A DNA stretch of 17,607 nucleotides from a virus. Lineage: Duplodnaviria > Heunggongvirae > Uroviricota > Caudoviricetes. Positions 1-17,566 of the stretch are shown piece by piece; within the stretch, counting starts at the first letter, position 1, and each line of letters begins with the position of its first letter. A program made the translations under genes and the position numbers. The notes below the pieces were generated by a model, which saw nothing but the letters and a program-made list of their open reading frames with translations, was not told the DNA's origin and did not search any database. The stretch is from positions 1 through 17,607 of IMG/VR virus record IMGVR_UViG_2896607866_000008. The stretch is one strand, 5' to 3'.

Positions 1-163
1 CACAACATCCGAGGACAGCATCGTCCGCCAGCCTACAGAAGTCCGGAAAGCCATGGAAGGTCGTTGGGAGGAGGTACGAATTCTATCATGCAAAAAATAC
101 GTAAAATCGATAACGCCTAGAAATCATTCAATACTCGCACTATCGAAAGTTTACCAGCCAACC

Positions 164-192
164 GCGGCACGTTCCTGCATACGACGTGCCGC
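164..192. other. Perfect 9-bp inverted repeat (GCGGCACGT / ACGTGCCGC) with an 11-nt loop, just past the stop of the 201-824 gene; possible terminator or protein-binding palindrome
   Basis: Read directly: 164-172 is the reverse complement of 184-192. No strong U-tract on either strand. Confidence 0.3.
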
Positions 193-200
193 AGCTTCTG

Positions 201-824
201 TTATTCCACGATAAAATTCCTAACCGAATTCAAATCCTTCAGACTATTCAGCTCTTCCTTCAGCTCCCGCTGACGGCGATAAATCTCATCGTTGCGATCG
301 ACCTGCGCCTGCACCATTGCTGCCGCCAGTTCTTCCAGTTCCGGCATCGACAGTTTCACCTGCTGATTATCGGCATCGCTCCACGCCATATGTGTTTGTG
401 CTGTGACAGATTTTGCCAGCATGACTACCGGGGACAGGCGGCCCAGTGAGTCGGGACCAGCATTCCAGATACGACCGTTCCATTCAAACGTGAACGGCTT
501 CGCCTCCTGTTCTGCGCGCCATGCTTCAATTTCCTGACGTCTGGCCTCTCTGGCCGCTTCCAGCATTTCTGGTGTCACAGTGAATGGGGCTATCTCACCC
601 CATTTGCCGCTTTGCAGTTCCTGCCAGATTTGCTGACCCGTCGGAGCGACATCATCAGCGGTGGCTGTGTAGGGGACTGCCTGGTCCCTGTCGTCAAAAA
701 AAACGTCACAGTCTACTGCGCCACTTTCGGTATAACGGGGATTAATGATTTTTTTAATTTCCACGATGCATTCCTCACGATGTGCGAATAAAAAGCCCGG
801 GCATTGCGCCAGAGACATGTGCAT
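201..824 (-). CDS. Putative phage tail fibre assembly/chaperone-like protein (207 aa)
   Basis: Long ORF immediately downstream of a side-tail-fibre-like gene; acidic coiled C-terminal half typical of fibre chaperones. Not a clear lambda Tfa match, so the family is inferred mainly from position. Start could be M1 or M3. Confidence 0.45.
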   Translation of the reverse strand: MHMSLAQCPGFLFAHREECIVEIKKIINPRYTESGAVDCDVFFDDRDQAVPYTATADDVAPTGQQIWQELQSGKWGEIAPFTVTPEMLEAAREARRQEIEAWRAEQEAKPFTFEWNGRIWNAGPDSLGRLSPVVMLAKSVTAQTHMAWSDADNQQVKLSMPELEELAAAMVQAQVDRNDEIYRRQRELKEELNSLKDLNSVRNFIVE

Positions 825-1128
825 CCGGCACCCCGGACAGGGCGCAATATGACCCCGGTAATGAATGCTCTGAACATCCCGTAATGAAAAATTGTGGGGA
901 TGCTATATACGTTCCGGTGGGAGTACTGGGCACTGAAATCCCCACCGGTCCCAGTCGTGAGCCTCTGTATGACTGCCCCCTGACAAGTCTGATGACTTTA
1001 TCACCGTCAGCTTCTCCCTGGTACGCAACAATAATCAGCCCGCCAATGTCAGGGTCTCCCCATCTGTTGCGGACAGAGCTCGCCACGATTCTGTAAATAA
1101 TATCTTCTGTGGTTATATTTATTTTCAC
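775..1128 (-). CDS. Hypothetical 117-aa ORF with GTG start overlapping the stop of the upstream fibre gene; possibly the out-of-frame C-terminal remnant of a once-longer Stf
   Basis: The ORF begins at a GTG overlapping the TGA of ORF 1125-2039 and ends inside the start of ORF 201-824. No recognisable motif. Confidence 0.2.
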   Translation of the reverse strand: MKINITTEDIIYRIVASSVRNRWGDPDIGGLIIVAYQGEADGDKVIRLVRGQSYRGSRLGPVGISVPSTPTGTYIASPQFFITGCSEHSLPGSYCALSGVPDAHVSGAMPGLFIRTS

Positions 1129-2039
1129 CCAGTCAGTCTGGATATGGGCCAGTAGCAGTAGCGGGTGTGATAAATGGGGCCGTTAATGCCGTAAAAAGTA
1201 AGGGATTTGGCTCTGTACCGCGGTTCTGTTGTCTCAGGGCGTGCATCAGTCCACCGGATGCTGAGCCCCCCTTCAAACCGTGTGTCGGGTATGATGATGC
1301 CGTAGGGGCCAGCAACGGAATATTCACCTGGCAGCGCATTCCTTACCCAGGCCAGGAAATCACTCTTAGTGTCAAAACGGATAACATCTTCAGGCAGAAA
1401 AGCACACCCAAAGCCGAATGCGCCGGGTATCGCCAGACGGCCTTTTGTCCGGTCGTAAATGTCGCTCTGTGCTTCCATCGTGGCCGCACTTTTCAGCCCC
1501 AGATTATCCCGGGACTTCTGTTGTGCCTTTTCGCCTGCTGCTGCGATTTCAGACAGATGGTTAGCCGTTTTCAGGGTGCCGGTCAGCGCAGCATCAATGT
1601 CATTTTTGGCCTGTTCTGCTGCGCGGGCATAACCTGCGGCTGCCGCCACATCCTGCGCCGTCTGCTGTGCGTTTCCGGCTGCGGCCCCGGCGCTCTGCTG
1701 CGCCTGCGCCACCATTTCCTCAAAGCGTTTGACGACATCCGGTTTCAGGTCGCCCTCATCAGGAGCAATCAGAAAGTCATTCAGCGTGCCGGGCTTTGAG
1801 TCCTCATATACAGCAATGTCGCCAACGTTGTACTCGTTGCGCCAGTCCTGTTTCAGATACACACCATATTTTCCAGTCCGCGCATGGAAACAGTATTCAC
1901 CATCGTTTCCTGTCATCACATCAGCAACAGTGTTCATCACCACTTCCGGGGTGTTTACCCGGGATTTCAGAATAATATGGTATCCGGACATGGGGATACC
2001 TGCGCCATCAGTCAGCGCACCTGATATCACTACAAACAT
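1125..2039 (-). CDS. Side tail fibre protein, lambda Stf-type N-terminal domain (304 aa, much shorter than full-length Stf proteins)
   Basis: N-terminus MFVVISGALTDGAGIP...VYEDSKPGTLNDFL matches the conserved prophage tail-fibre N-terminal domain of lambda Stf / Rac StfR (MAVKISGVLKDGTGKP...VYEDSQPGTLNDFL), followed by an Ala/Gln-rich coiled region. Full-length Stf proteins are several hundred residues longer. Confidence 0.65.
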   Translation of the reverse strand: MFVVISGALTDGAGIPMSGYHIILKSRVNTPEVVMNTVADVMTGNDGEYCFHARTGKYGVYLKQDWRNEYNVGDIAVYEDSKPGTLNDFLIAPDEGDLKPDVVKRFEEMVAQAQQSAGAAAGNAQQTAQDVAAAAGYARAAEQAKNDIDAALTGTLKTANHLSEIAAAGEKAQQKSRDNLGLKSAATMEAQSDIYDRTKGRLAIPGAFGFGCAFLPEDVIRFDTKSDFLAWVRNALPGEYSVAGPYGIIIPDTRFEGGLSIRWTDARPETTEPRYRAKSLTFYGINGPIYHTRYCYWPISRLTG

Positions 2040-2062
2040 TGTTTTTCTCGCGATAAATTAAA

Positions 2063-2608
2063 TCAGGAAGAACCTTCCGGAGAGGCGGGCCATTCAATGG
2101 CGTTGTATGAGGATTTATCAGTGATGGTGCTGAAATCCATCGCCTGCAGCGATTTCGCGTAAATACGACAGGCTTTCAGCTTTTCTTTATCTTCGTCGCT
2201 GATTAACCCCAGCAGCAGGTCTTCTTCCCATTCCCCTGTCCGGGCACTGACCTGAGCCAGAAGGGCATCACGCTCATCTTCCGCTTTGAGTCTGTAGTCA
2301 AAGACAAATTCATCATTGCGGTAAAACCAGTAACCCGGCGCGGTAATCCGTCGGTTAGCGGTAATATCAGGAACTTCAATAACACTGGCATTGCGTGGCT
2401 CGATGCCTGTCACATCCTTACCGACCCACACCACGCGACCATCTCCGGTGTAAGCTATTTTTATTGTGTCGCTGGCGAAATTCTTCAGCTCTTCATACCA
2501 GTTTTTTCCGTCTTCTGAAAAAAGCCAGGAGACCGAATATCGTTTTGTCATCTGATATTGTTCTGCTGTTTTCGGATTACCCGCAGTAATATTTTTTAAA
2601 TGCAACAT
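2063..2608 (-). CDS. Tail fibre assembly protein (Tfa family chaperone, 181 aa)
   Basis: N-terminal MLHLKNITAGNPKT...WLFSEDGKNWYEE and C-terminal ...IEWPASP are characteristic of Tfa chaperones (lambda Tfa ends DIEWPALP). It sits directly downstream of the tail fibre gene. Confidence 0.75.
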   Translation of the reverse strand: MLHLKNITAGNPKTAEQYQMTKRYSVSWLFSEDGKNWYEELKNFASDTIKIAYTGDGRVVWVGKDVTGIEPRNASVIEVPDITANRRITAPGYWFYRNDEFVFDYRLKAEDERDALLAQVSARTGEWEEDLLLGLISDEDKEKLKACRIYAKSLQAMDFSTITDKSSYNAIEWPASPEGSS

Positions 2609-2610
2609 TG

Positions 2611-3996
2611 TTAAATACTCGCTACGTTATACCAGGTGCCATTAATCAGTTTTTGCAGTGGTCGGTAATACACACCGTCAACGTTATCCGCTGAGTTACG
2701 GCCGGTATCCGATATCGCCATCCCTGACAGCCCGTGTCCCGAAGGTGCGCAAAATCTCCACGAAACGGTGTTACTGCCGGGGCTGTAATACATTTCATGG
2801 CCATACCGTACATCCTGTACCCCCTCTGTTCGATATTTATAGCGGGCATCGAAGTTTCCGTAATTTAACGGAATTACCTGTCCGTTAACAGTGAACACTA
2901 TGCTGTTATCCGGGTTTCTCTGGCTGAAAAAATGCCAGCCTGAATCATCGCCAAGCTCTGCAACAACAGGCCTGGATGGATTACCCCACAAATAAAACGC
3001 TGCATTTTTCGTGGAGTTGTTGGCGCTGGATAACGTGAATTTTCTGGCAGTTCCGGCCTGAATATTCTTAAAAGCAATAGCCACTCCATTCTGAAAGCGG
3101 AATACACGCTGACTATTAGCATAAACATCCAGAATACCGTCTCCATTCTGTTTAAATCCGGTGTCATTATCACCAAGAACAATTGAATTCCCCCCCAGGG
3201 CGTTCTGAACGCCGATACCCAGCGCACCATTGACCTGCGAACCACCGCCAACAGACACTTTATGCGACATGGATATTTCACCCGTCCGCAAATTAATGGT
3301 GAACGGGCGCAGGGGACCAATATCGCCATTTTCCCCCTGACCTTCACTGGTGGGAATAAGGTGCAGGCACTCTTCCGAACGACGAAAAATCAGGCCAAAA
3401 GCTTCGTTGAAAATCCTCAGCGCATTAACACCACGGATTTTCAGCTCTCCGGTTATTTTATCGCCTTCCCGATGAACATAGCGTTGATCTGACTGCTCTT
3501 TACTGTAAACCTGAAGATTATCCCGTGCCGTCCCTTTATTCTGAAGGTCTGACAGATTGTTCTTCTGCCGCAGGAATATCCTTTTCGGATCCTCAAGAAG
3601 ATTTACCCAGCCCGCACTGTCGGAGCCTTCAGGATCGGTCAGGTTATCGTCTGTGGTATTCAGCCAGACCGCTGTTGTTGCGACTCCGGCGAGAATGGCT
3701 CCTTTTGCATATCCACCAATGGCCCCCGCAAAACCGGCATTATACGTGTACAAACCGCCAGCCTGGGCGAACCGTATTGCTGCGGTAATATCGTACATCA
3801 GACCGTTAAAATCCTTGCCGTGTGGCGGTATACCTCCCGCTGAGACCGCTGTCATGGTCACCGGAGGAAAACCTGAATCATACGCAGCATTACCGCTCTC
3901 TCTGGTCTGCTGTGTCGCCTTGTCCGGGATACGGTTTTTATCTCCGGTACTCGCAAAGGGGACCGCCAGCTGGCGGGGTTTATCACTGGCCTTCAT
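2611..3996 (-). CDS. Tail fibre protein with P2 gpH-like C-terminal receptor-binding region (461 aa)
   Basis: C-terminal block [50 protein letters not shown] ... [11 protein letters not shown] matches the conserved distal tail-fibre domain of P2 H-type fibres as I recall it. Its position between the baseplate I-like gene and Tfa fits. Confidence 0.7.
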
Positions 3997-4587
3997 TACG
4001 GGACTCCTTTAAAACTACTGAAACATAAACACCCGGCGGGGATGGCAGTGCACCCGACGACTGGATAATCGCCAGTTCTGCCAACGAGAGCGCGGACTCA
4101 AAGACGTAACTCATCCTCAGCCCACCATTATTCAGAACATAAGCCCGCCGTTTTTTTCCGAACATAAATCTCAGCATCCGGTTAATATCCGGAACGGAAC
4201 AGTCAGTAATGTTCGACATGGCTTTCATCAGTATCAGCCGCCGGTATACAGCATCAGACAGGTCAACAGTCCGGGTATCCGATTTTCCGTTGTAAAACGG
4301 TGCCTGATTAAACGGACAGGGATCATCCATTACCGGGGTGTCCATCCTGGACTCGCTGAAGCCAGGTAATTAAAATCGTCCTTTACCGTCAGCCGGCGAC
4401 TGACACCCACAATCTTTCCCCAGACATCAAGACCATACTTTTCTGCGGTATCGATGTTCCAGATAAGACCATAAAAATCACTGATAAAACTGTCGGGGGA
4501 AAGCGCTGCGTTAAAGCTGTTAATGAGGGCATTGAGTCGGGGGCTGGCAGCATACTGCGCAAGCACAGTGGCAGCCACATTCTGCAC
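3983..4587 (-). pseudogene. Baseplate/tail protein I-like (Mu gp48 / YmfQ-like), split into 85-aa and 120-aa ORFs by a frameshift near 4330-4345
   Basis: Two adjacent ORFs in different frames overlap by 16 nt; together about 200 aa, the size of YmfQ/gp48-type proteins, and located exactly between the J-like gene and the tail fibre. The upstream frame ends ...SPGWTPR-stop and the downstream frame starts MDTPVMDD. Confidence 0.5.
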
Positions 4588-4588
4588 G

Positions 4589-5830
4589 TTATGCCTCCTG
4601 GAGTTTCACACTGATATCCGACACATCCAGAACCGGAATCTCATCTATCCCGAAAGTGACAGCCGTTGTCCATGACGAACCGTCACGGCTCACAGTAAGG
4701 CCCAGAATATCAATATGTTCCGGATCGGTTTTGTAAATGCCGGCATAGTAGCGCCCGGCAGAGACAACAGAGGCAACCCTTGCCCGCAGACCACCATCTG
4801 TACCATTAAATGCGTCCAGCACGGATTGCTGTACCTGTCGGGTAATATCTGAAGGCAGGTAGTCACTTTTTTTCAGAGTCACACTGACATGCAGACTGAC
4901 GGGTTTGAGTGTCTGCCAGCTGATCACGTATTCAGGATACGGCGGATCGTACTCCTTATCTGCAACAGTGAACGTTGTGTTGCCATTCATATCAATACCC
5001 GGCGGAGCCTTACGCCAGATGGCCGCCGCGATATCTGCCGGGCTGCCGCCGTACACGCCAACATAAAGCGAACCGGGTGTTAATGGATACTGACTGACTC
5101 CGGCTTTTTGTTCTGTTTTTTTCGGATTATGGGTGACGTAAACATCCACCACGTTTTCCACCGTGGAGAGTATTTCACCCCGGATGGCTTCCAGAATATT
5201 CCGGGCATTACGGGCAACTGAATTACGTCGGCGGTTTTCAAAGTCCGCACGGGTTTCCTCATCGCTGCCCGGCACACCGGCACTGGCGTTAGTGACACCT
5301 GACCAGCCAGGTATTGCCTTATAAATTTTATTCAGCGTCCCCACAGGACAGCCGACGGGGCCGGTGGACAAATTCAGAAATACCGCATCAACCTGCCCTG
5401 ATGCGCCGATAGTGACGTCTGACTGACTGACATACTTATAACCGGCCTCATCCTGCGCCATACTGCCCGCCGGGATCAGCGTGCCAACCAGCCCGGTACA
5501 GGTCGCTGTTACTGTCGTACCTGTGGCCCCGCGGCGCTCCAGGAAATAAATCCTGCCTATTGCATCCTGAAAGCGACCACTGGAAAAGTCAGGGTTGATC
5601 TGGTTAACGATATACAGCAACTGATCGTTTTTATCCGCAATAATGGCGCTTTCGCTGGATGCAAGTTGTCCCTGCGGACTGCTCAGACTGGTACTCATGG
5701 CCCCGCCCAGCGCCGCCGAAAAATCAGCAAGCCTGCCGCTCAGAATATCCGCTTCATCCGGCACATTCAGCCCGCTATCCGAAATCTGTACAGCGGGCAC
5801 TGCGGTAGAAAAAGATTTATTTTCACTCAT
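4589..5830 (-). CDS. Baseplate J-like protein (Mu gp47 / P2 gpJ family, 413 aa)
   Basis: Size, position after a W/gp25-like gene and before the I-like gene, and overall resemblance to baseplate J family proteins. ATGA-type overlap with the upstream gene. Confidence 0.7.
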   Translation of the reverse strand: MSENKSFSTAVPAVQISDSGLNVPDEADILSGRLADFSAALGGAMSTSLSSPQGQLASSESAIIADKNDQLLYIVNQINPDFSSGRFQDAIGRIYFLERRGATGTTVTATCTGLVGTLIPAGSMAQDEAGYKYVSQSDVTIGASGQVDAVFLNLSTGPVGCPVGTLNKIYKAIPGWSGVTNASAGVPGSDEETRADFENRRRNSVARNARNILEAIRGEILSTVENVVDVYVTHNPKKTEQKAGVSQYPLTPGSLYVGVYGGSPADIAAAIWRKAPPGIDMNGNTTFTVADKEYDPPYPEYVISWQTLKPVSLHVSVTLKKSDYLPSDITRQVQQSVLDAFNGTDGGLRARVASVVSAGRYYAGIYKTDPEHIDILGLTVSRDGSSWTTAVTFGIDEIPVLDVSDISVKLQEA

Positions 5831-6183
5831 AGCAGTACCGTAAAAATGTCATTATTGGTATCTGTAATACGCAGCACACCTGTTACTGTCCGGGTTTGAT
5901 CAGCTGTGACCAGGCAGACAGCGGCGCTCACGGTCGGCAGTTTAAGTGCTTCCTGTTGCAGAGTGGCATTCACCAGTTGTTTGCCGGGCCAGTGTCCGAG
6001 GATGCGTGGCCAGTAAGGTATGCCAGCCGTTGAGTCGTACCAGCACTCCCCCAGAAAAGTACTGCACGCACACGCCACATCCTGAGCTACCGCATGGGGA
6101 TTATCAGTAATGGCAAGATTTCCGGTATCATCAAGCAGGATATCCCATGTCCCGGTGTCAAGAAGAAGTGATCGTGACTGCAT
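5827..6183 (-). CDS. Baseplate wedge protein (GPW/gp25-like, Mu gp46-like, 118 aa)
   Basis: Small ORF between the spike V-like and J-like genes, 4-nt overlap with the J-like gene; conserved gene order V-W-J-I-H-G. Confidence 0.55.
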   Translation of the reverse strand: MQSRSLLLDTGTWDILLDDTGNLAITDNPHAVAQDVACACSTFLGECWYDSTAGIPYWPRILGHWPGKQLVNATLQQEALKLPTVSAAVCLVTADQTRTVTGVLRITDTNNDIFTVLL

Positions 6184-6195
6184 GTTTTCTCCTGT

Positions 6196-6873
6196 TTACC
6201 GGGGTCCCTGCGTGGTTGAGCCGCCGGACTCAACGCCGCCGTGAACGTGGTTTCCAAAATCAATACCCCCGATGTTCGAACCGCCGGAAAGCCTGGACTG
6301 CCCGGTAACGTCAAGCCCCTTACTGACGGCGGTATCGCCGTTCAGCGCAATTTGTGGTGAATTAACGGTGAAGCTTTTCGGCGCATTAATCACACCCTCA
6401 GGCGCGGATATCTCCACTTTCCAGGGAGATACAATCCGTATCTGGTTGTCATCAAATACCACAAACTGGACGGGATCACCGTTGAGCACGCCACCCAGCC
6501 AGATGGCATCAGCATAATTATGGGTACGCTTTGATCCCGGCATCGCAGCCTGACGCGTGGCTTTTACCGCACTGATATCCCGATCGCAGATGGCAAGAAA
6601 ACCGATATCCCCCACATGTGGCGGCATAATCACCGCATTACCGCCCCCCTGTAGTCGCCATACGGGAATGTTATAAATCACCTCATGTTCAACCGGGGAA
6701 CCGTCTGCTGCAACGCCCATTACCATCGGTCGGGCCTCAATAAATCCCTCTTCCACGGCTACCACCCGTCCCAGAGTGATAAACGCATGACGTCCGAGAA
6801 ACTGCCGCAGCATAAAGTCCTGTGCATTGATTTCGCTGTTCACGTCTGTCGGGTTACTGAGTGGTTGTGCCAT
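6196..6873 (-). CDS. Baseplate spike / assembly protein V-like (Mu gp45-like, 225 aa)
   Basis: Gly-rich C-terminus with HxH motif (GIDFGNHVHGGVESGG) typical of phage central spike proteins; position upstream of the W-like gene. Confidence 0.65.
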   Translation of the reverse strand: MAQPLSNPTDVNSEINAQDFMLRQFLGRHAFITLGRVVAVEEGFIEARPMVMGVAADGSPVEHEVIYNIPVWRLQGGGNAVIMPPHVGDIGFLAICDRDISAVKATRQAAMPGSKRTHNYADAIWLGGVLNGDPVQFVVFDDNQIRIVSPWKVEISAPEGVINAPKSFTVNSPQIALNGDTAVSKGLDVTGQSRLSGGSNIGGIDFGNHVHGGVESGGSTTQGPR

Positions 6874-7723
6874 TTTCTTCAGCCCTCATCATGGTACAGT
6901 TGGAACTCCACGGACCGCCCACGGTTCGCGAAGTAATGGTGTGTATCACCCCTGTGATCGTATAATCGCCCGTCATATCAGGCAGTGACGATTCCAGATG
7001 CGCTGGCCTGCCAGTAAAGAGATCGGGGCAGAATATCGTGGTGGCGCTGAGTCCGGTCATGGTGTAAACCGGATAGCCAGTCAGTCCGTGATCCGGCGAA
7101 ATCAGTACCGGCGGAATATTCCGGTTCTGCCCTTTCGGCCAGATGGTGACTTTCTCCACATTCCCCAGATCAATGTTAATATCGGCGGCTGAAGCGACAT
7201 CCAGCATTTGTTGTACAACATTACCGGAAAAATGCGGGTCAGACAGACTGCGGCTGACCCCCTGGTTTTCAAATCCAAGCCCGACAGTTGACGCCAGCGC
7301 ACGGATAATATCTGCAACCGCAACATCGCCCTTTGCGCTGAAATCTGCCGCCGGCTGATTACGCAGATTAAAATGAATCTGTCCTGTCAGAATGAGCGGA
7401 ATATCCGGCGCCTGGTTGTAGTCGGCGTATGCATCAGTAATATCACCTTCAAAAATAAGCCGCCCGTCGGCCCACAGCCGCATTTTATTTGCGGTACTCT
7501 GCTCCTGTCGCCACACACCGCGCCAGCTTAAATTCGTCATATGCGCCGGTGACATTCCCCAGATATACAGCGTGATTTGTGTACCAGCCACCCCTCCATA
7601 TACGGCAATACTGGCAAAACAGCTTGCGTCGGTAATGGTCAGCATATTGCCCTGGCCATTACCAAACGTTCGTCCGTCTGAAAGAGTGAACTCCACCGTT
7701 ATTTTATGTTGTCTGTAGCTCAT
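6854..7723 (-). CDS. Phage tail/baseplate-associated protein (possible hub-like, 289 aa)
   Basis: Long ORF in the tail module immediately upstream of the spike gene, 20-nt overlap with it. No diagnostic motif recognised; assignment is by context. Confidence 0.4.
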
Positions 7724-8022
7724 ATCAGTTCCTCAGGTAACAGCCAGTAGAGCCGGTACCGGGATCCGAGCCCCCGCCAGTCAGGGTCACTATTCCCCTC
7801 CGTGTCGGTAAAAAACAGGTCCCCCTGAAACGGCAGGTATCCGTACCGGACAATCCGGTTATTATTCAGACACAGCACGCCATACAGGCACGGTTCACCA
7901 TTAACAATGATATCGATATACATCCCCGTAGTACGCTGATTCAGGCGAATGGTGCAGACCTGAGCGCCCAGTGTCACCGTAAACTGCTGGGCTTTAACGG
8001 GAGATAAAACAATTTCCAGCAT
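7720..8022 (-). CDS. Hypothetical phage protein (100 aa)
   Basis: ORF with a 4-nt ATGA-type overlap to the downstream 289-aa gene, suggesting translational coupling. Confidence 0.4.
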
Positions 8023-8288
8023 CAGGTGATCCCCCTGTTCGTGGCGCTTCGTCTGTCAGCGTCTGACGGTTGTGTCACCGACGCCGTAACTGGCTGCGTT
8101 TTAACCGATGCGGCCCCTTTTGCTTTATCGTTGTCCGTGGGAGACGACTTATCCGTACTTCCCACTGACACCTCTCCTGTATTCATTACGGTCTGAAATA
8201 CCGCAGTAACCGTCAGTAAGGTCGGACCACTCATCGTCTTTACGCGGATCGCTACGCCAGTGAAACGTAAACACCGGGATTTTTCCAC
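8022..8288 (-). CDS. Small hypothetical ORF with low-complexity Ser/Thr/Asp-rich tail; start uncertain (M1 8288, M19 8234 or M35 8186)
   Basis: ORF in a different frame overlapping the 3' end of the truncated terminase ORF. It may be a small YmfR-like gene or an out-of-frame remnant. Confidence 0.25.
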
Positions 8289-9018
8289 TGTGCCGCTTCT
8301 GTGCGAAGGGGTTGTTCATACCGTTAACCGATGAGAGATCGATACGACATCGGGTTGTCTGGGAAAGCGCGGCATCAATAAGTAATGGTCGCTGGAGAAA
8401 AGCAGCCTCATCCACAAAATAAAGGGTCGTACGGTCACCACGACCGATATTATCGCCAGCCTCACCTTTGATAACCGCGCCAGTTTCAGGAAACTCAACA
8501 CGCATATATGGCGCGTGCTTCTTCTCGCTCCACGAACCGCGAAACTCTACAGGTAGTGTTTCCACGAACTTGCGCGCCTTCCAGAACAATGCTTTCGGGT
8601 CACCGGTGCTGTCGACGTATTCCTCTTTACGGGAGCCGAAACCGATAACCATTTCTTTGTTGAAGAGACAAAGCGAGCAGGCCAGTCCGATCGCGGTCCA
8701 ACTGAGCCCCATTTCACGGGATTTTTCGGTAATACCATTCTCCCGATTGCTCCAGCGTTTCATAATCCAGTGGATCCACTCCTCCTGCTTAGGGAAGAGT
8801 AAAAACGGAATGGTCACCGGCAGGCCATAATCAATATTACGCGGGTCCGTTGTCATGCCCCAGTCGATAATGAACTGAGCCGGGTTGGTACGGTAAAACT
8901 GTTTTAGTGCAGGCAATATTTCAGGATTCTGGCGAATGCGCTGTAGGCGTTCCATCCGCCATTCAAAAACCATCTGGTAATCAGGATGTTTAAAATCGAA
9001 GGGGAATGGTAACGGCAT
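8149..9018 (-). CDS. Terminase large subunit, N-terminal ATPase domain only (289 aa; nuclease domain absent), likely a truncated remnant
   Basis: Walker-B-like LYFVDEAAF and downstream SSVNG motif typical of TerL ATPase domains. The ORF stops after 289 aa with no nuclease domain, and the next genes are baseplate genes rather than portal/capsid. Confidence 0.55.
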
Positions 9019-9253: not shown

Positions 9254-9325
9254 TGAAGTGGCACACTGAATTTGGCCACCTGAACAGAGGTGATATGCTC
9301 ACCTCAGAACAACACAGGTGCTCCA

Positions 9326-10494
<1,169 letters not shown>

Positions 10495-10669
10495 CCACTT
10501 CAATCCCCCATGTCACATAGCTTGAACTGAATCAGATCCTTCACAAGCTGCTCAGCCTTTTTAATGGCCTTCTTCTCTTTCTTCCGACGAGTCATGAGAG
10601 CGCTATGAGGTAGCCTGAGTTTAACGGACACTCCTTCCTGAAATAGAATGGCATCAGAAGGAGCTAATA

Positions 10670-10972
10670 ATGAGCAGAAAAACCCAACGTTACTCTAAAG
10701 AGTTCAAAGCCGAAGCTGTCAGAACGGTTCTTGAAAATCAACTTTCGATCAGTGAAGGCGCTTCCCGATTATCCCTTCCTGAAGGCACTTTAGGACAATG
10801 GGTTACCGCCGCCAGAAAAGGGCTCGGTACTCCTGGTTCCCGCACGGTGGCTGAACTGGAATCTGAAATTCTGCAACTGCGTAAGGCGTTAAATGAAGCT
10901 CGCCTTGAGCGAGATATATTAAAAAAAGCAACAGCGTATTTTGCACAGGAGTCGCTGAAAAATACGCGTTAA
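10670..10972 (+). CDS. IS600 transposase OrfA (100 aa)
   Basis: MSRKTQRYSKEFKAEAVRTVLENQLSISEGASRLSLPEGTLGQWV...; an A7G slippery run lies near its 3' end. Confidence 0.9.
   Translation: MSRKTQRYSKEFKAEAVRTVLENQLSISEGASRLSLPEGTLGQWVTAARKGLGTPGSRTVAELESEILQLRKALNEARLERDILKKATAYFAQESLKNTR
10921..10928 (+). promoter_or_regulatory. IS600 putative -1 frameshift slippery run (AAAAAAAG)
   Basis: Read directly near the end of orfA, with orfB in the -1 frame downstream; frameshifting is inferred by analogy with other IS3-family elements. Confidence 0.5.
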
Positions 10973-11007
10973 TCGAACAATGGCGACAACAATTTCCCAT
11001 TGAAGCG

Positions 11008-11826
11008 ATGTGTCAGGTATTTGGTGTATCCAGGAGCGGTTATTACAACTGGGTACAGCATGAACCCTCAGACAGAAAACAAAGTGATGAGCGGCTAAAA
11101 CTGGAGATTAAGGTGGCACATATCCGCACTCGCGAAACATATGGAACCCGGCGGCTCCAGACGGAGCTGGCAGAGAATGGCATCATCGTTGGTCGTGACC
11201 GACTGGCACGTCTTCGTAAGGAGCTAAGGCTACGCTGTAAGCAGAAACGCAAGTTCAGAGCGACTACGAACCCGAACCACAATCTGCCAGTTGCGCCAAA
11301 TCTGCTGAACCAGACGTTCGCTCCTACAGCACCAAATCAGGTCTGGGTGGCGGACCTGACGTATGTTGCCACACAGGAGGGATGGTTGTACCTCGCTGGC
11401 ATCAAAGATGTTTATACGTGCGAAATTGTCGGCTACGCCATGGGAGAGCGCATGACAAAAGAGCTGACAGGTAAAGCCCTGTTTATGGCGCTCAGGAGCC
11501 AGCGCCCACCTGCCGGGCTAATCCACCACTCTGATCGAGGTTCACAGTACTGCGCATACGATTACCGGGTCATACAGGAGCAGTCTGGTCTGAAAACATC
11601 AATGTCGCGTAAAGGTAACTGTTACGACAACGCTCCGATGGAAAGCTTCTGGGGAACGCTGAAAAATGAGAGCCTGAGCCACTATCGTTTTAATAACCGG
11701 GATGAAGCCATCTCAGTAATACGGGAATACATTGAGATTTTCTACAATCGTCAGCGTCGTCACTCTCGTCTGGGGAATATCTCCCCGGCAGCCTTCAGGG
11801 AAAAATATCATCAGATGGCTGCTTAA
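11008..11826 (+). CDS. IS600 transposase OrfB (DDE domain, 272 aa from first Met)
   Basis: ...NQVWVADLTYVATQEGWLYLAGIKDVYTCEIVGYAMG...HHSDRGSQYCA... typical IS3-family DDE transposase. Confidence 0.9.
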   Translation: MCQVFGVSRSGYYNWVQHEPSDRKQSDERLKLEIKVAHIRTRETYGTRRLQTELAENGIIVGRDRLARLRKELRLRCKQKRKFRATTNPNHNLPVAPNLLNQTFAPTAPNQVWVADLTYVATQEGWLYLAGIKDVYTCEIVGYAMGERMTKELTGKALFMALRSQRPPAGLIHHSDRGSQYCAYDYRVIQEQSGLKTSMSRKGNCYDNAPMESFWGTLKNESLSHYRFNNRDEAISVIREYIEIFYNRQRRHSRLGNISPAAFREKYHQMAA

Positions 11827-12142
11827 AAAAAGAACAAATGGTAGTGTCCGCTATTGCCAGTACACCTCAGTAATCCATTTCGACTATAACTGACAGGTCA
11901 TCACGACGTATGACTGCGTATTTGCTACTAAATAGTTTCTTTATTTTTTCCACGATGCCTCCAAGTTTATAAGTACAAACGGTTATATCCACATAGAGAC
12001 AAAAATATTAATCTGAAAAACATTTATTTCACGCCGTATATTTGATTGTTTAATGTGCAAGTACAATGACTTTTATTTTTTGTTGTGTATATAATCAAAT
12101 ATATGGTTATTTTTCACCCTGCGTATTCAGCACGCAACAAAA

Positions 12143-12162
12143 AACCCGCCGAAGCGGGTTTA
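12143..12162 (-). terminator. Rho-independent terminator at the 3' end of the hok mRNA
   Basis: AACCCGC-CGAA-GCGGGTT hairpin; on the minus strand it is followed by TTTTTTGTTG, on the plus strand only by TTT. Confidence 0.6.
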
Positions 12163-12228
12163 GTGCGGGTGCGTTGAGGATGCCTGACACATGAGAGGTG
12201 GCGAGGGATTTCTCCCCCGCCTGGTCTC

Positions 12229-12384
12229 TTACTCCTCAGGTTCGTAAGCTGTGAAGACAGCGACCTCCGTCTGGCCGGTTCGGATTCGTACCTCGCAGAG
12301 GTCTTTCCTCGTTACCAGTGCCGTCACTATGACGGTTAAACAGATGACGATCAGGGCGATTAACATCGCCTTTTGCTGCTTCAT
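12229..12384 (-). CDS. hokD: Hok/Gef family type I toxin (51 aa), HokD/RelF-like
   Basis: Translation MKQQKAMLIALIVICLTVIVTALVTRKDLCEVRIRTGQTEVAVFTAYEPEE read directly; matches the Hok/Gef consensus and, to my recollection, E. coli HokD (RelF) specifically. Strong SD (AGGAG) 8 nt upstream. Confidence 0.85.
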   Translation of the reverse strand: MKQQKAMLIALIVICLTVIVTALVTRKDLCEVRIRTGQTEVAVFTAYEPEE

Positions 12385-12441
12385 AGCCTGCTTCTCCTTG
12401 CCTTTCGGCACGTAAGAGGCTAACCTACATTTGTGAGACAT
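12229..12441 (-). CDS. Mok-like overlapping reading frame (70 aa, in-frame N-terminal extension of Hok)
   Basis: An in-frame ATG 19 codons upstream of the hok start (MSHKCRLASYVPKGKEKQA-) with a GAGG SD; the same architecture as mokC/hokC, which share a stop codon. Confidence 0.55.
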   Translation of the reverse strand: MSHKCRLASYVPKGKEKQAMKQQKAMLIALIVICLTVIVTALVTRKDLCEVRIRTGQTEVAVFTAYEPEE

Positions 12442-12723
12442 AGATTGGGCCTCAGATTAATGTTAAGCGTCTTGCAGGACGCGTAATGTTAACTGGGGCT
12501 TTTCTCTGTCTGCCTTACAGTGGCATGCCCGAGGCAGACAGCCTCAAGCACCCGCAGCAATCTTACCGATACCGATAAGAAAACGCTATTTTTTATTGCC
12601 AGCACCTTCTATCCAGGCTAATTTATCTGCGTCAGAACGGCGCAATGCGCTCGCCTGAGATACGTTTACTTGCCATGGTAACAACAGGTAACGGCAATTG
12701 CTGTTTCTGTTTTGTTTCCTTCA

Positions 12724-14232: not shown

Positions 14233-14451
14233 TCAGCTTTCCTTATACGGATTAATTTTATTGTGCAGTGTGTTGAATGACGCCCATACCACGTCGTTAT
14301 ACAATTCAATAACTGGCTCAATTATTTTTCCGATTATCCAGACAAAAATTAGCGGGGATATCGGTGTCATCAACACGATAAACAGAATGAGAAACAGGAA
14401 TTCTGTTGTTCTACTCTTTCGCGGATATTTTTTTCTAAATAATGTAACCAT
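14233..14451 (-). CDS. Small predicted membrane protein (72 aa), coupled to the HNH gene
   Basis: Hydrophobic stretch FLFLILFIVLMTPISPLIFVWIIGKII; its stop is 1 nt before the HNH ATG. The SD is weak, so coding status is uncertain. Confidence 0.35.
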   Translation of the reverse strand: MVTLFRKKYPRKSRTTEFLFLILFIVLMTPISPLIFVWIIGKIIEPVIELYNDVVWASFNTLHNKINPYKES

Positions 14452-14457
14452 TCATTA

Positions 14458-14473
14458 CCGCCCTTTCGGGCGG
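14458..14473 (-). other. GC-rich stem-loop (CCGCCC-TTTC-GGGCGG) in the intergenic space between the truncated upstream gene and the 72-aa ORF
   Basis: Perfect 6-bp stem with 4-nt loop read directly; AU-rich but no clean U-tract after it on the minus strand. Confidence 0.3.
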
Positions 14474-14543
14474 TCTCCTGATGATTTGAGGGTGCAGAAA
14501 TCCCTCCGGTTAAGGATTAAATTTTTAACAGTGCTAAATTTAA

Positions 14544-14769
14544 TTATTCAGTTCTGGATTTTGTCGCCCTGCGTATCCGCGCTTTCGCATTACGCTCAAT
14601 CTGTATCAGCTTTTCTATATTTCTCCGCCTTTCCTGTTCCTCCTGGCGCAATAGTCTTACATCATCTGCCAGTCTGGTTTCTCTTTTTGCCACAGAGAGC
14701 ATCCAGTCAAACGGCTCCACAACCGCACCGCAGATTTTACAGCGGACCTGACGCTCTTTTTCGTCAACC
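14544..14769 (-). pseudogene. 3' fragment (75 codons) of an unknown gene, 5'-truncated by IS911 copy 2
   Basis: Open frame ...VDEKERQVRCKICGAVVEPFDWMLSVAKRETRLADDVRLLRQEEQERRRNIEKLIQIERNAKARIRRATKSRTE-stop runs directly out of the IS911 right end at 14770. Confidence 0.35.
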
Positions 14770-14777
14770 TGAAGTGG

Positions 14778-15931
<1,154 letters not shown>

Positions 15932-16000
15932 TGGAGCACCTGTGTTGTTCTGAGGTGAGCATATCACCTCTGTTCAGGTGGCCAAATTCAGTGTGCCACT

Positions 16001-16857
16001 TCAGGTATTTGGTGTATCCAGGAGCGGTTATTACAACTGGGTACAGCATGAACCCTCAGACAGAAAACAAAGTGATGAGCGGCTAAAACTGGAGATTAAG
16101 GTGGCACATATCCGCACTCGCGAAACATATGGAACCCGGCGGCTCCAGACGGAGCTGGCAGAGAATGGCATCATCGTTGGTCGTGACCGACTGGCACGTC
16201 TTCGTAAGGAGCTAAGGCTACGCTGTAAGCAGAAACGCAAGTTCAGAGCGACTACGAACCCGAACCACAATCTGCCAGTTGCGCCAAATCTGCTGAACCA
16301 GACGTTCGCTCCTACAGCACCAAATCAGGTCTGGGTGGCGGACCTGACGTATGTTGCCACACAGGAGGGATGGTTGTACCTCGCTGGCATCAAAGATGTT
16401 TATACGTGCGAAATTGTCGGCTACGCCATGGGAGAGCGCATGACAAAAGAGCTGACAGGTAAAGCCCTGTTTATGGCGCTCAGGAGCCAGCGCCCACCTG
16501 CCGGGCTAATCCACCACTCTGATCGAGGTTCACAGTACTGCGCATACGATTACCGGGTCATACAGGAGCAGTCTGGTCTGAAAACATCAATGTCGCGTAA
16601 AGGTAACTGTTACGACAACGCTCCGATGGAAAGCTTCTGGGGAACGCTGAAAAATGAGAGCCTGAGCCACTATCGTTTTAATAACCGGGATGAAGCCATC
16701 TCAGTAATACGGGAATACATTGAGATTTTCTACAATCGTCAGCGTCGTCACTCTCGTCTGGGGAATATCTCCCCGGCAGCCTTCAGGGAAAAATATCATC
16801 AGATGGCTGCTTAAAAAAAGAACAAATGGTAGTGTCCGCTATTGCCAGTACACCTCA
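16001..16857 (+). mobile_element. IS600, 5'-truncated partial copy (lacks about the first 408 bp including the left end and orfA); junction with the IS911 left end at about 16001-16003
   Basis: Sequence from GGTATTTGGTGTATCCAGGAGCGG onward is co-linear with copy 1 from 11013 onward; the right end ...GTACACCTCA is at 16857. Confidence 0.85.
16004..16814 (+). pseudogene. IS600 orfB lacking its orfA partner and frameshift context (the ORF-track protein MAKFSVPLQ... has an IS911-derived chimeric N-terminus)
   Basis: The OrfB sequence is identical to copy 1 from QVFGVSRSGYY onward; the upstream 26 nt of the ORF belong to the IS911 end. Confidence 0.7.
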
Positions 16858-17293
16858 GGACGCCTGCATCAAAACGTTCAGAAACGACATCGGTCAAACC
16901 ATAATCAATGGTAAGCTGAATATCAATTTCAGGATGCGATTTCAGGAATGTGCGCATGGCTGGTAACAATATCGTTTTTGCTGCATGTTCTACAGTAGTA
17001 ATACGTATTGTCCCGGATGGGCGGTTCTGCAGATCGCTCAGGGATGTCAGGGCAGAATCTATGTCATGCAATATAGGGCCAAGAACAGACAAAAGATGCT
17101 CGCCCGCTTCAGTGGGTACAACGCTGCGCGTGGTTCGCGTCAGAAGCCGCAATCCCAATCGTTCTTCTATACGGCGCACTATCTGGCTTAAAGCTGACTG
17201 CGCCATGCTCAGGCGGGCTGCTGCGCGAGTGAAGCTACGCTCCTCTGCAACGACGACAAACGCCATCAGATCAGCGATTTCTTCACGCTTCAT
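16858..17293 (-). pseudogene. LysR-family transcriptional regulator, 3'-truncated by the IS600 insertion (about 145 native codons remain)
   Basis: N-terminal HTH MKREEIADLMAFVVVAEERSFTRAAARLSMAQSALSQIVRRIEERLGLRLLTRTTRSV is the classic LysR signature; the frame runs into the IS600 right end at 16857, giving a chimeric tail. Confidence 0.75.
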
Positions 17294-17430
17294 TCAGTAT
17301 CTCCATACAATCTATTAATCATTTAAATGATAGGTCTAATCATGATTTAGGGTCTAATCAACTTAATGATCAATATCTATAGTGATATCACCAACCGTCA
17401 AAACGAACCGACAACTCCATGAGGAACTGA

Positions 17431-17566
17431 ATGATGAATAATAAAGTCAGCTTCACTAACAGCAATAATCCAACCATCTCTTTGTCTGCAGTGATCTATT
17501 TCCCTCCAAAATTTGATGAAACCCGTCAGTATCCGGCAATTGTGGTATCTCACCCAGGTGGGGGCG
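17431..17566 (+). pseudogene. Dienelactone hydrolase-like / alpha-beta hydrolase gene, 5' 45 codons only, interrupted by IS2
   Basis: MMNNKVSFTNSNNPTISLSAVIYFPPKFDETRQYPAIVVSHPGGGV, then the reading frame enters the IS2 terminal repeat. Divergent from the LysR gene. The hydrolase family assignment is from memory of similar N-termini. Confidence 0.5.

What the first reader, a model, noticed from the sequence alone, without database searches (positions are those of the whole stretch)
11870..12140. Strongly AT-rich 270-bp non-coding tract between the IS600 right end and the hok terminator
The tract has long A/T runs (TTTATTTTTTCC, TTTTATTTTTTGTTGTGTATATAATC) and no convincing ORF. This composition is unlike the flanking coding DNA and is typical of horizontally acquired regulatory DNA, curved DNA or an integration/insertion hotspot; IS600 has inserted at its edge. 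It could hold a promoter for an unseen plus-strand transcript or a prophage boundary.
Basis: seen in the sequence. Interest (0 to 1): 0.2.

Follow-up and report, generated by a model that had tools for sequence, protein, structure and literature searches.

The report
Orphaned promoter region of IS600-truncated prophage gene
The AT-rich stretch is the upstream control region and first 28 codons of a small prophage gene that IS600 cut off; this is an ordinary relic, though intact relatives of the gene sit where SOS-controlled prophage antirepressors normally sit.

Summary
The AT-richness is real. The tract 11870-12140 has 32% GC and its non-coding part 30%, against 50% for the window; it is the lowest-GC spot in 17.6 kb.

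It is not all non-coding. On the minus strand, GGAGG-CATC-GTG (start at 11953) opens a conserved 70-aa prophage gene (PHROG 1813, "orf70"). IS600 cuts this gene after codon 28.

The tract is not a flank of hok. The hok 3' end occurs in 3592 of 5426 complete E. coli genomes. The tract occurs in only 173, always with orf70, and in some of them without hok. Homology breaks right after the hok terminator hairpin (12142-12161).

In intact relatives orf70 heads irsA(DUF1367)-ybcO-Q(DUF1133), the late-regulator block of Rac-like lambdoid prophages. Here those genes are gone and the left flank of IS600 is unrelated DNA.

The best reading is an orphaned promoter, leader and ribosome-binding region. The promoter positions are inferred only. 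A weak conserved minus-strand candidate and a stronger-looking plus-strand candidate both exist, and neither exceeds chance.

Family members in other phages carry LexA boxes or follow dinI, which is the Gifsy antirepressor slot. The window's lineage has no LexA box. Interest is low.

The parts
11870..11953 (-). First 28 codons (GTG start at 11953) of a 70-aa prophage gene, 'orf70' (PHROG phrog_1813; RefSeq hypothetical proteins WP_000411314.1 / WP_308333848.1), truncated by IS600. The in-frame stop TGA (11869-11867) is supplied by the IS600 end.
   Evidence: Codon-position identity pattern against diverged homologues is 0.87/0.90/0.73 and 0.77/0.86/0.54.
11958..11962 (-). Shine-Dalgarno GGAGG, 4 nt upstream of the GTG start
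   Evidence: Read from the sequence. Invariant in five diverged lineages.
11954..12140 (-). AT-rich (30% GC) intergenic 5' region of orf70: the proposed promoter and leader
   Evidence: Homologous upstream DNA accompanies orf70 in lineages with other upstream genes. Its identity to diverged relatives (0.86/0.75/0.62/0.59) is about that of third codon positions.
12005..12032 (-). Candidate orf70 promoter: GTGAAA (12032-12027), 16 nt, TAATAT (12010-12005). It matches only 8 of 12 consensus positions, so it is inferred, not shown.
   Evidence: At the aligned position L008 has GTGAAA-17-TATATT, L012 has ATGAAA-17-TATATT and L011 has CTGGTA-17-TATATT. In L016/L018 a LexA box lies in the same alignment columns.
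12066..12095 (+). Plus-strand promoter-like match ATGACT-18-TATAAT (10 of 12), pointing towards the hok terminator
   Evidence: Kept in L004. Kept as ATGACT-18-TACAAT in L012 and TGGACA-18-TCTAAT in L008, and lost in L011. The number of such matches is not above shuffled expectation.
12034..12106 (.). Inverted repeat with arms 12034-12052 and 12088-12106 (19 nt, 84% complementary, 35 nt apart). Core is ATATTTGATT / AATCAAATAT.
   Evidence: The 10-mer pair is found only in the window-type and L012-type tracts among the fetched loci, and not in the immunity region of a carrier prophage. Function unknown.
12142..12161 (-). hokD intrinsic terminator hairpin followed by TTTTTTGTTG. Homology with most hok-bearing prophages breaks just downstream of it, at about 12136-12137.
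12229..12384 (-). hokD toxin gene (51 aa). mokD extends to 12441. The Rfam sok hit is at 12379-12553.
10606..11869 (+). IS600, complete copy. Its right end abuts codon 28 of orf70.
10503..10605 (.). 103-bp orphan fragment between IS911 and IS600. It is a piece of another prophage gene, not the remainder of orf70.
9254..10502 (+). IS911 copy

Best explanation
The tract is the 5' end of a transcription unit that IS600 beheaded. In intact Rac-like lambdoid prophages the minus-strand order is: hokD, its terminator, about 187 bp of AT-rich DNA, GGAGG-GTG, orf70 (70 aa), irsA (DUF1367), ybcO (DUF1364), then a Q-like antiterminator (DUF1133).

The AT-rich DNA is orf70's own upstream region. It holds the ribosome-binding site (shown). 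It most likely also holds a promoter about 45-80 nt upstream of the start codon that restarts rightward phage transcription after the hok terminator (inferred). orf70 and its upstream region together form a low-GC cassette of about 400 bp (30% and 38% GC against 48-51% for neighbours). The cassette is present in some prophages and absent from others that are otherwise syntenic.

In this window IS600 sits after codon 28. The rest of orf70 and the irsA-ybcO-Q genes, present in all intact relatives examined, are missing, and the other IS600 flank is unrelated DNA. So the tract is now a functionless relic. Any transcript it still starts would run antisense into IS600.
For: - Sequence: GGAGG-CATC-GTG followed by 28 in-frame codons, ending at the IS600 terminus.
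- Intact counterparts at 96.7-99.6% identity carry a 70-aa CDS at exactly this place, followed by DUF1367, DUF1364 and DUF1133.
- orf70 is a real gene. It matches phrog_1813 at E 4.5e-32, has a purifying-selection codon pattern, has 29 representative clusters, and gives an AlphaFold model with pLDDT 86.9 from a 24-sequence alignment.
- Linkage: the hok 3' end is in 3592 of 5426 genomes, but the tract is in 173, and tract plus hok together in 154. EC12 and Z142-4 have the tract and orf70 behind an ATPase/methylase pair with no hok. L012 has it behind an AAA/S8-peptidase pair.
- In phage Rac 442/2 the slot between hok and irsA holds rem instead, and its intergenic DNA is unrelated and not AT-rich.
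- Upstream regions of 11 other family members are also AT-rich: 32-46% GC against 41-52% for their loci.
- The promoter position is conserved across lineages, and LexA boxes occupy the same columns in L016/L018.
- No terminator was found between orf70 and irsA.
- Composition.
Against: - No transcription data exist for this locus.
- The minus-strand candidate promoter in the window's own lineage matches only 8 of 12 consensus positions, and the standard scan missed it.
- The upstream region as a whole evolves about as fast as synonymous sites, so most of it is weakly constrained.
- In lambdoid phages nin-region genes can be expressed purely by antiterminated read-through from pR. A local promoter is therefore not strictly required.
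- The strongest consensus match lies on the opposite strand.
Confidence: 0.8

Rival explanations
1. The tract's main function lies on the plus strand. The promoter ATGACT-18-TATAAT (12066-12095) would fire away from orf70 into the back of the hok terminator. It would make a short RNA, or an RNA antisense to the 3' end of the upstream cargo transcript (here hok mRNA), for example to insulate or modulate that cargo.
For: It is the best sigma-70 match in the region, at 10 of 12. Its PWM score is 8.5 against about 4 for the sense strand. Both hexamers are retained in L004 and L012, and a variant (TGGACA-18-TCTAAT) in L008, while spacer bases change. The RNA from 12100 to 12175(+) folds better than shuffles, z = -2.1.
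Against: The number of promoter-like hits is not above shuffles. The L008 variant lacks the key A at position 2 of the -10 hexamer, and L011 has no match. On the plus strand the hairpin is followed only by TTTAGTG, which makes a poor terminator. The DNA it would transcribe differs between lineages (hok, peptidase, ATPase), so no common target exists. The fold z-score mostly reflects the hok terminator hairpin. No Rfam family matches: P9 scores 16.5 bits against a cut-off of 43.
Confidence: 0.2
2. The tract is merely the conserved 3' flank of the hok/sok locus and has no role of its own.
For: It directly follows the hokD terminator in the window and in 154 E. coli genomes. Remnants of the hok 3' UTR and hairpin persist upstream of the tract in L008, L011 and L018, which suggests an old association.
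Against: About 96% of genomes with this hok 3' end lack the tract. The tract and orf70 occur without hok. Homology with other hok prophages stops at about 12136.
Confidence: 0.03
3. The tract is a structural or silencing element: AT-rich DNA bound by H-NS, intrinsically curved, and a preferred IS target or a prophage end.
For: At 30% GC it is the lowest-GC segment of the window. From established knowledge, H-NS binds AT-rich horizontally acquired DNA, so binding is plausible. An IS did land 84 bp away.
Against: There is no helical phasing of AA/TT; 1329-1734 of 2000 shuffles do as well. IS600 is inside the 36%-GC coding part, not in the tract. The tract query aligned full-length (>=80% coverage) in 173 of the 174 E. 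coli genomes that hold it, so it is not interrupted there. It is internal to the prophage, not at an end. H-NS binding would not exclude the promoter reading.
Confidence: 0.1

Closest known systems
LexA-controlled dinI-antirepressor-irsA operon of Gifsy prophages (GftA/GfoA/GfhA; Lemire et al. 2011, PMC3121763)
   Same: A small gene of about 70-80 aa, often with a GTG start, lies immediately upstream of irsA (DUF1367) in the nin region and ahead of the Q gene. Members of the orf70 family occupy exactly the antirepressor position in Salmonella phage SPN3UB (LexA box, dinI, gp59, irsA-like, ninG, ylcG, Q) and in L020/L021. Other members have their own LexA box: L011, L016, L018, L022. A carrier prophage is Rac-like, with a short 139-aa HTH repressor.
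   Different: The window's lineage has no LexA box within 1 kb, nor anywhere in the window, and no dinI. There is no detectable sequence similarity to GftA (STM2621.1n): BLASTP finds nothing and hhalign probability is <1%. Antirepressor activity of orf70 is untested.
Rem, antirepressor of DicA in the Qin prophage (Ragunathan et al. 2023, PMC10448788)
   Same: In phage Rac 442/2, rem sits between the hok terminator and irsA-ybcO-Q, the same slot that orf70 holds in its intact relatives. It is of similar size, and no LexA box lies upstream of it either. A collinear weak alignment spans nearly the full length.
   Different: Homology is not established: hhalign probability is 1.7% with E 0.03, and BLASTP gives E 0.046 for one subfamily member only. 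The two belong to different PHROGs, 340 and 1813. The rem upstream region is not AT-rich and is unrelated.
Phage 'morons' (extra gene with its own promoter and terminator and deviant composition, as defined for lambdoid phages; from established knowledge)
   Same: A low-GC cassette of about 400 bp is present in some prophages and absent from otherwise syntenic ones. It follows a terminator and has an AT-rich upstream region.
   Different: No terminator of its own was found before irsA, so it looks like the first gene of the late-regulator operon rather than an autonomous unit. Its promoter is not demonstrated.
IsrK sRNA locus of Gifsy-1 (Hershko-Shalev et al. 2016, PMC4825925)
   Same: A two-hairpin RNA ending in a terminator lies next to a small ORF near a Q-like gene. 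Rfam isrK gives a full-length sub-threshold match at 12139-12220(-). The paper also reports a start site 1.6 kb upstream of antQ, which shows that Q-like operons can have their own upstream start site.
   Different: The score is 30.6 bits against a gathering cut-off of 50. The match is the hokD 3' UTR and terminator, which lies outside the tract. In Gifsy-1, isrK lies downstream of antQ, not upstream of irsA. I judge this a generic resemblance.

Membership tests
5' region of the orf70 (phrog_1813) transcription unit | Contiguous with a conserved start codon and Shine-Dalgarno sequence of the gene | tested here: met
   GGAGG-CATC-GTG at 11962-11951, with 28 codons identical to intact homologues
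5' region of the orf70 (phrog_1813) transcription unit | Co-inherited with the gene regardless of the upstream neighbour | tested here: met
   The tract is homologous in lineages with hok, ATPase/methylase or AAA/S8-peptidase upstream
5' region of the orf70 (phrog_1813) transcription unit | Contains an active promoter for the gene | not testable with these tools
   Only consensus matches are available: 8 of 12 in the window lineage and 9 of 12 in L008, at the aligned position. No expression data.
hok/sok locus (3' flank) | Sequence is linked to hok across genomes | tested here: not met
   3592 genomes have the hok 3' end and 173 have the tract. The tract occurs without hok.
Gifsy-type LexA-controlled antirepressor operon | LexA box (CTGT-N8-ACAG) at the operon promoter | tested here: not met
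   None in the tract, in the 1 kb upstream, in the whole window, or in 21 kb of a carrier prophage. Present in the sister lineages L011, L016, L018, L020/21, L022 and SPN3UB.
Gifsy-type LexA-controlled antirepressor operon | Small gene placed immediately upstream of irsA (DUF1367) | tested here: met
   Intact relatives L001, L003, L004, L008, L011, L012, L016, L019 and L025. In the window itself irsA is deleted.
Gifsy-type LexA-controlled antirepressor operon | Sequence homology to GftA/GfoA or Rem | tested here: not met
   hhalign probability 0.2-1.7%, and BLASTP finds nothing or E 0.046
Gifsy-type LexA-controlled antirepressor operon | Protein binds and inactivates the prophage repressor | not testable with these tools
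   Needs genetics or biochemistry. Fold searches were uninformative: best PDB E 2.1, best BFVD E 0.056.
Moron | Deviant base composition and presence/absence polymorphism | tested here: met
   30% and 38% GC against 48-51%. Absent from DUF1367-YbcO-Q modules of other phages.
Moron | Own terminator downstream | tested here: not met
   No terminator-like site between orf70 and irsA in L003
IsrK sRNA (RF01394) | Score at or above the Rfam gathering threshold | tested here: not met
   30.6 bits against 50, and the match lies in the hokD 3' UTR outside the tract
Prophage end / attachment site | Prophage genes on one side only | tested here: not met
   Prophage genes lie on both sides in intact relatives, and the integrase is about 20 kb away in Z1323
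Intrinsically curved DNA | A/T tracts phased at 10-11 bp | tested here: not met
   The periodogram is not above shuffles

The most novel reading that the evidence does not exclude
The orf70 / phrog_1813 proteins may be an undescribed family of small prophage-induction factors. The likeliest role is antirepressor of short RacR/DicA/Gifsy-type repressors. They would be interchangeable with GftA/GfoA and Rem in the slot just upstream of irsA-Q.

Some lineages would be wired to the SOS response through LexA boxes or dinI. Others, including the window's lineage, would be wired through a LexA-independent AT-rich control region whose signal is unknown, as is also the case for Rem. On this reading the tract is the sensory promoter of a prophage induction switch, here disabled by IS600.
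Probability: 0.3. Interest if true: 0.5.

Novelty: new member of a known kind. Interest (0 to 1): 0.2.

Why it matters
For this window it matters little. It explains an odd-looking AT-rich patch as the leftover head of a gene destroyed by IS600. It also documents one more IS-mediated loss of prophage late regulation in what looks like a Shigella or enteroinvasive E. coli background (my inference from the IS600/IS911 load and the closest relatives; the source organism was not identified).

The wider value is a lead. A small, uncharacterised phage protein family sits in the position of known antirepressors, and in six of the 12 sampled lineages outside the window's own it is under LexA boxes. 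Testing it could add a third family to the repressor/antirepressor induction systems of Rac-, Qin- and Gifsy-type prophages. It could also show what controls induction where no LexA box is present.

Tried and rejected
- Rfam at gathering thresholds finds only sok. At relaxed thresholds it gives a sub-threshold isrK match on the hokD 3' UTR, which I judged generic, and negligible P9, istR and other matches.
- RNA folding of the 221-nt leader gives z = -0.01, so there is no sign of a structured leader or riboswitch.
- Curvature: no AA/TT phasing.
- LexA box search in the window and in the carrier prophage found nothing.
- Plus-strand ORF 12066-12194 (42 aa): it runs through the hok terminator into DNA that is replaced in EC12-type loci, so I did not pursue it as a gene.
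- The first structure prediction, with 11 sequences, was poor (pLDDT 57). The second, with 24 sequences, was good (pLDDT 87). Foldseek against PDB and BFVD then gave no significant match, and afdb50 was unavailable.
- Homology of orf70 to GftA or Rem by BLASTP and hhalign is not significant.
- Pfam gives no family for orf70, even at E 10.
- The inverted-repeat 10-mer ATATTTGATT was tested as an operator shared with the immunity region and was not found there.
- An exact search for the IS600/orf70 junction in viral contigs gave no match.
- The rest of orf70 was sought left of IS600. It is absent; the 103-bp fragment there belongs to another prophage gene.

Full report
**Observation.**
The composition claim holds.
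- GC is 0.317 over 11870-12140 and 0.299 over 11954-12140, against 0.502 for the window. Every 187-bp window with GC <= 0.33 starts between 11866 and 11979.
IS600 occupies 10606-11869: 99.9% identity over its full 1264 bp to annotated IS600, with ends TGAGGTAGCC... and ...ACACCTCA.
- hokD is 12229-12384(-). Its terminator hairpin is 12161-12142(-), followed by TTTTTTGTTG. Rfam finds sok at 12379-12553.

**What was missed.**
The tract is not all non-coding.
- On the minus strand, GGAGG (11962-11958), CATC and GTG (11953) open a reading frame of 28 codons (VEKIKKLFSSKYAVIRRDDLSVIVEMDY). It ends in a TGA contributed by the IS600 terminus.
- E. coli prophages that match the tract at 96.7-99.6% carry, at exactly this place, an annotated 70-aa hypothetical gene. 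It is followed by DUF1367, DUF1364 (YbcO) and DUF1133 genes, then (in FDAARGOS_944) tRNAs and a holin. Shigella flexneri SFBU1023 also has the intact gene.
- I call this gene orf70. It is a genuine gene. It matches phrog_1813 at E 4.5e-32. Identity to diverged homologues by codon position is 0.87/0.90/0.73 and 0.77/0.86/0.54. A profile search finds 29 representative clusters. A 24-sequence alignment gives a confident model, pLDDT 86.9, with four strands and a C-terminal helix.
- Homology to the intact gene begins at 11869/11870. The DNA left of IS600 (10503-10605) is a fragment of a different prophage gene, bounded by IS911 at 9254-10502. So this is more than a simple insertion. The remainder of orf70 and the irsA-ybcO-Q genes that follow it in all intact relatives examined are missing, and the window continues into baseplate and tail-fibre genes.

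**Whose DNA is the AT-rich part?**
- The hok 3' UTR and terminator are found in 3592 of 5426 complete E. coli genomes. The tract is in only 173, and both together in 154.
- In most phages and genomes, similarity to the query starts at query position 267 or later, which is window position about 12136, just past the terminator T-run.
- In strains EC12 and Z142-4 the tract and orf70 (91% identity) lie behind an ATPase and cytosine-methylase pair with no hok. Homology begins at the same point.
- More distant orf70 homologues (55-82% protein identity) keep a homologous upstream region. What lies before it varies: hok, an AAA/S8-peptidase pair, a HATPase/methyltransferase pair or a RelE-type toxin-antitoxin pair. 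L019 instead has other early-region genes upstream, a different N-terminus and a less AT-rich upstream region (45% GC).
- DUF1367-YbcO-Q modules also exist without orf70. In phage Rac 442/2 the slot after hok holds rem, with an unrelated, non-AT-rich spacer.
- The tract therefore belongs to orf70, not to hok. With orf70 it forms a low-GC cassette: 30% and 38% GC against 48-51% for its neighbours.

**How it most likely works.**
A gene that follows a strong terminator needs either read-through or its own promoter.
- Across five lineages the alignment keeps GGAGG, a TTATATT/TAATATT block and an nTGAAA block 16-17 nt upstream of it. These are GTGAAA-16-TAATAT at 12032-12005 in the window, GTGAAA-17-TATATT in L008, and ATGAAA-17-TATATT in L012.
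- In the L016/L018 lineage a LexA box fills the same alignment columns. This argues that the family's promoter sits there.
- The window's version matches only 8 of 12 consensus positions, and the standard scan did not list it. The exact promoter is therefore an inference.
- The rest of the tract diverges about as fast as synonymous sites. The leader has no unusual RNA structure, z = -0.01.
- No terminator separates orf70 from irsA. orf70 thus looks like the first gene of the late-regulator operon.

**Rival on the other strand.**
- ATGACT-18-TATAAT (12066-12095, plus strand) is the best consensus match, and it is partly conserved.
- The number of such matches equals the shuffled expectation.
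- The L008 version lacks the critical A at position 2 of the -10 hexamer, and L011 has no match.
- The DNA it would transcribe differs between lineages.
- I keep this reading at about 0.2. It is not exclusive of the main reading.

**Comparison with known systems.**
- Lemire et al. (PMC3121763) showed that Gifsy prophages are induced by small antirepressors encoded in a LexA-controlled operon, dinI-antirepressor-irsA.
- Ragunathan et al. (PMC10448788) showed that Rem of the Qin prophage is an antirepressor of DicA. In phage Rac 442/2, rem lies between hok and irsA.
- orf70 occupies this same slot in its intact relatives.
- Family members elsewhere follow the Gifsy pattern exactly. Examples are LexA box (2 mismatches from consensus)-dinI-gp59-irsA-like-ninG-ylcG-Q in Salmonella phage SPN3UB, LexA box-dinI-P0026-rusA, and a LexA box directly upstream in L011, L016, L018 and L022.
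- Boxes with perfect cores and at most 4 mismatches did not occur in 20,000 random AT-rich 400-mers.
- A carrier prophage is Rac-like, with a short 139-aa HTH repressor and ydaS/ydaT.
- Against membership: the window's lineage has no LexA box anywhere sampled. orf70 shows no significant similarity to GftA or Rem: hhalign probability is at most 1.7%, although the alignment with Rem is collinear over 67 columns. Fold searches are uninformative.
- 'Works like an antirepressor gene' is therefore a positional hypothesis, not a finding.
- The isrK similarity (30.6 bits against a cut-off of 50) lies on the hokD 3' UTR and is generic.

**Verdict.**
- The tract is an ordinary, now orphaned, upstream region of an IS600-truncated prophage gene. 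It is not a prophage boundary, not curved DNA by the test used, and not a hok flank.
- Interest for the finding itself is low (0.2).
- The one lead worth carrying forward is the orf70 family as a candidate third family of prophage antirepressor-slot proteins.

Noticed in passing
L002 (PP818812.1, 'Actinobacillus phage vB_Apl-pPE4') 3360-5572: This phage, deposited with Actinobacillus pleuropneumoniae as host, is about 97% identical at the DNA level to E. coli Rac-like prophages across hok-orf70-DUF1367-YbcO-DUF1133. The host assignment looks doubtful; an E. coli prophage or contamination seems more likely.
   Followed up: no
window 12139-12220 (-): The hokD 3' UTR and terminator give a full-length but sub-threshold match to the Rfam isrK model (30.6 bits against a cut-off of 50), and also to rsmX (26 bits). 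This is probably a generic two-hairpin-plus-terminator resemblance.
   Followed up: partly
loci L004/L005, L008-L010, L012/L013, L016, L018 (region just upstream of the orf70 tract): The position immediately upstream of the tract is a variable cargo slot. It holds hokD, a RelE/HTH toxin-antitoxin pair, HATPase_c_3 with Methyltransf_35 and a cytosine methylase, or an AAA ATPase with an S8 peptidase. Remnants of the hok 3' UTR and hairpin persist in some of these. It looks like a toxin/defence-gene hotspot of Rac-like prophages.
   Followed up: partly
window 9254-11869: IS911 and IS600 lie 103 bp apart. The 103-bp piece between them (10503-10605) is a fragment of a prophage gene that is annotated as hypothetical or Rha-family regulator in E. 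coli. The prophage's late-regulator genes (irsA-ybcO-Q) are absent between hok and the baseplate/tail genes at 1-9000, which implies IS-mediated deletion or rearrangement.
   Followed up: partly
window 3983-4587 (-): The DUF2612 baseplate-cluster gene is split into two overlapping ORFs, 4330-4587 (profile positions 1-73) and 3983-4345 (positions 79-180). This suggests a frameshift or pseudogene.
   Followed up: no
window 14778-17293: A second cluster of IS3-family transposase ORFs (14778-15602 and 15629-15967 on the minus strand; 15978-16814 on the plus strand) abuts a LysR-family gene that keeps only its N-terminal 160 aa (16811-17293, minus strand). Other low-GC patches lie at 14251-14564 and 17253-17523.
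   Followed up: no
window 12034-12052 / 12088-12106: A 19-nt inverted repeat (84% complementary; core ATATTTGATT/AATCAAATAT) brackets the region between the two candidate promoters. It is a perfect 12-mer pair in the L012 lineage and absent in L008/L011. It was not found in the immunity region of a carrier prophage. It may be an operator for an unknown regulator.
   Followed up: partly
L027 (Salmonella phage SPN3UB) 2164-2737; L020 1021-1587; L022 2465-2722: Distant members of the orf70 family sit directly behind LexA boxes or dinI in functional Salmonella and enterobacterial phages, at the position of the Gifsy antirepressor gene. They show no detectable similarity to GftA.
   Followed up: partly
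P0016/P0017 (45-aa proteins, E. coli): Some database entries annotate the C-terminal 45 residues of orf70 (starting at MDYFPE) as 'bacteriocin'. I saw no basis for this name.
   Followed up: no
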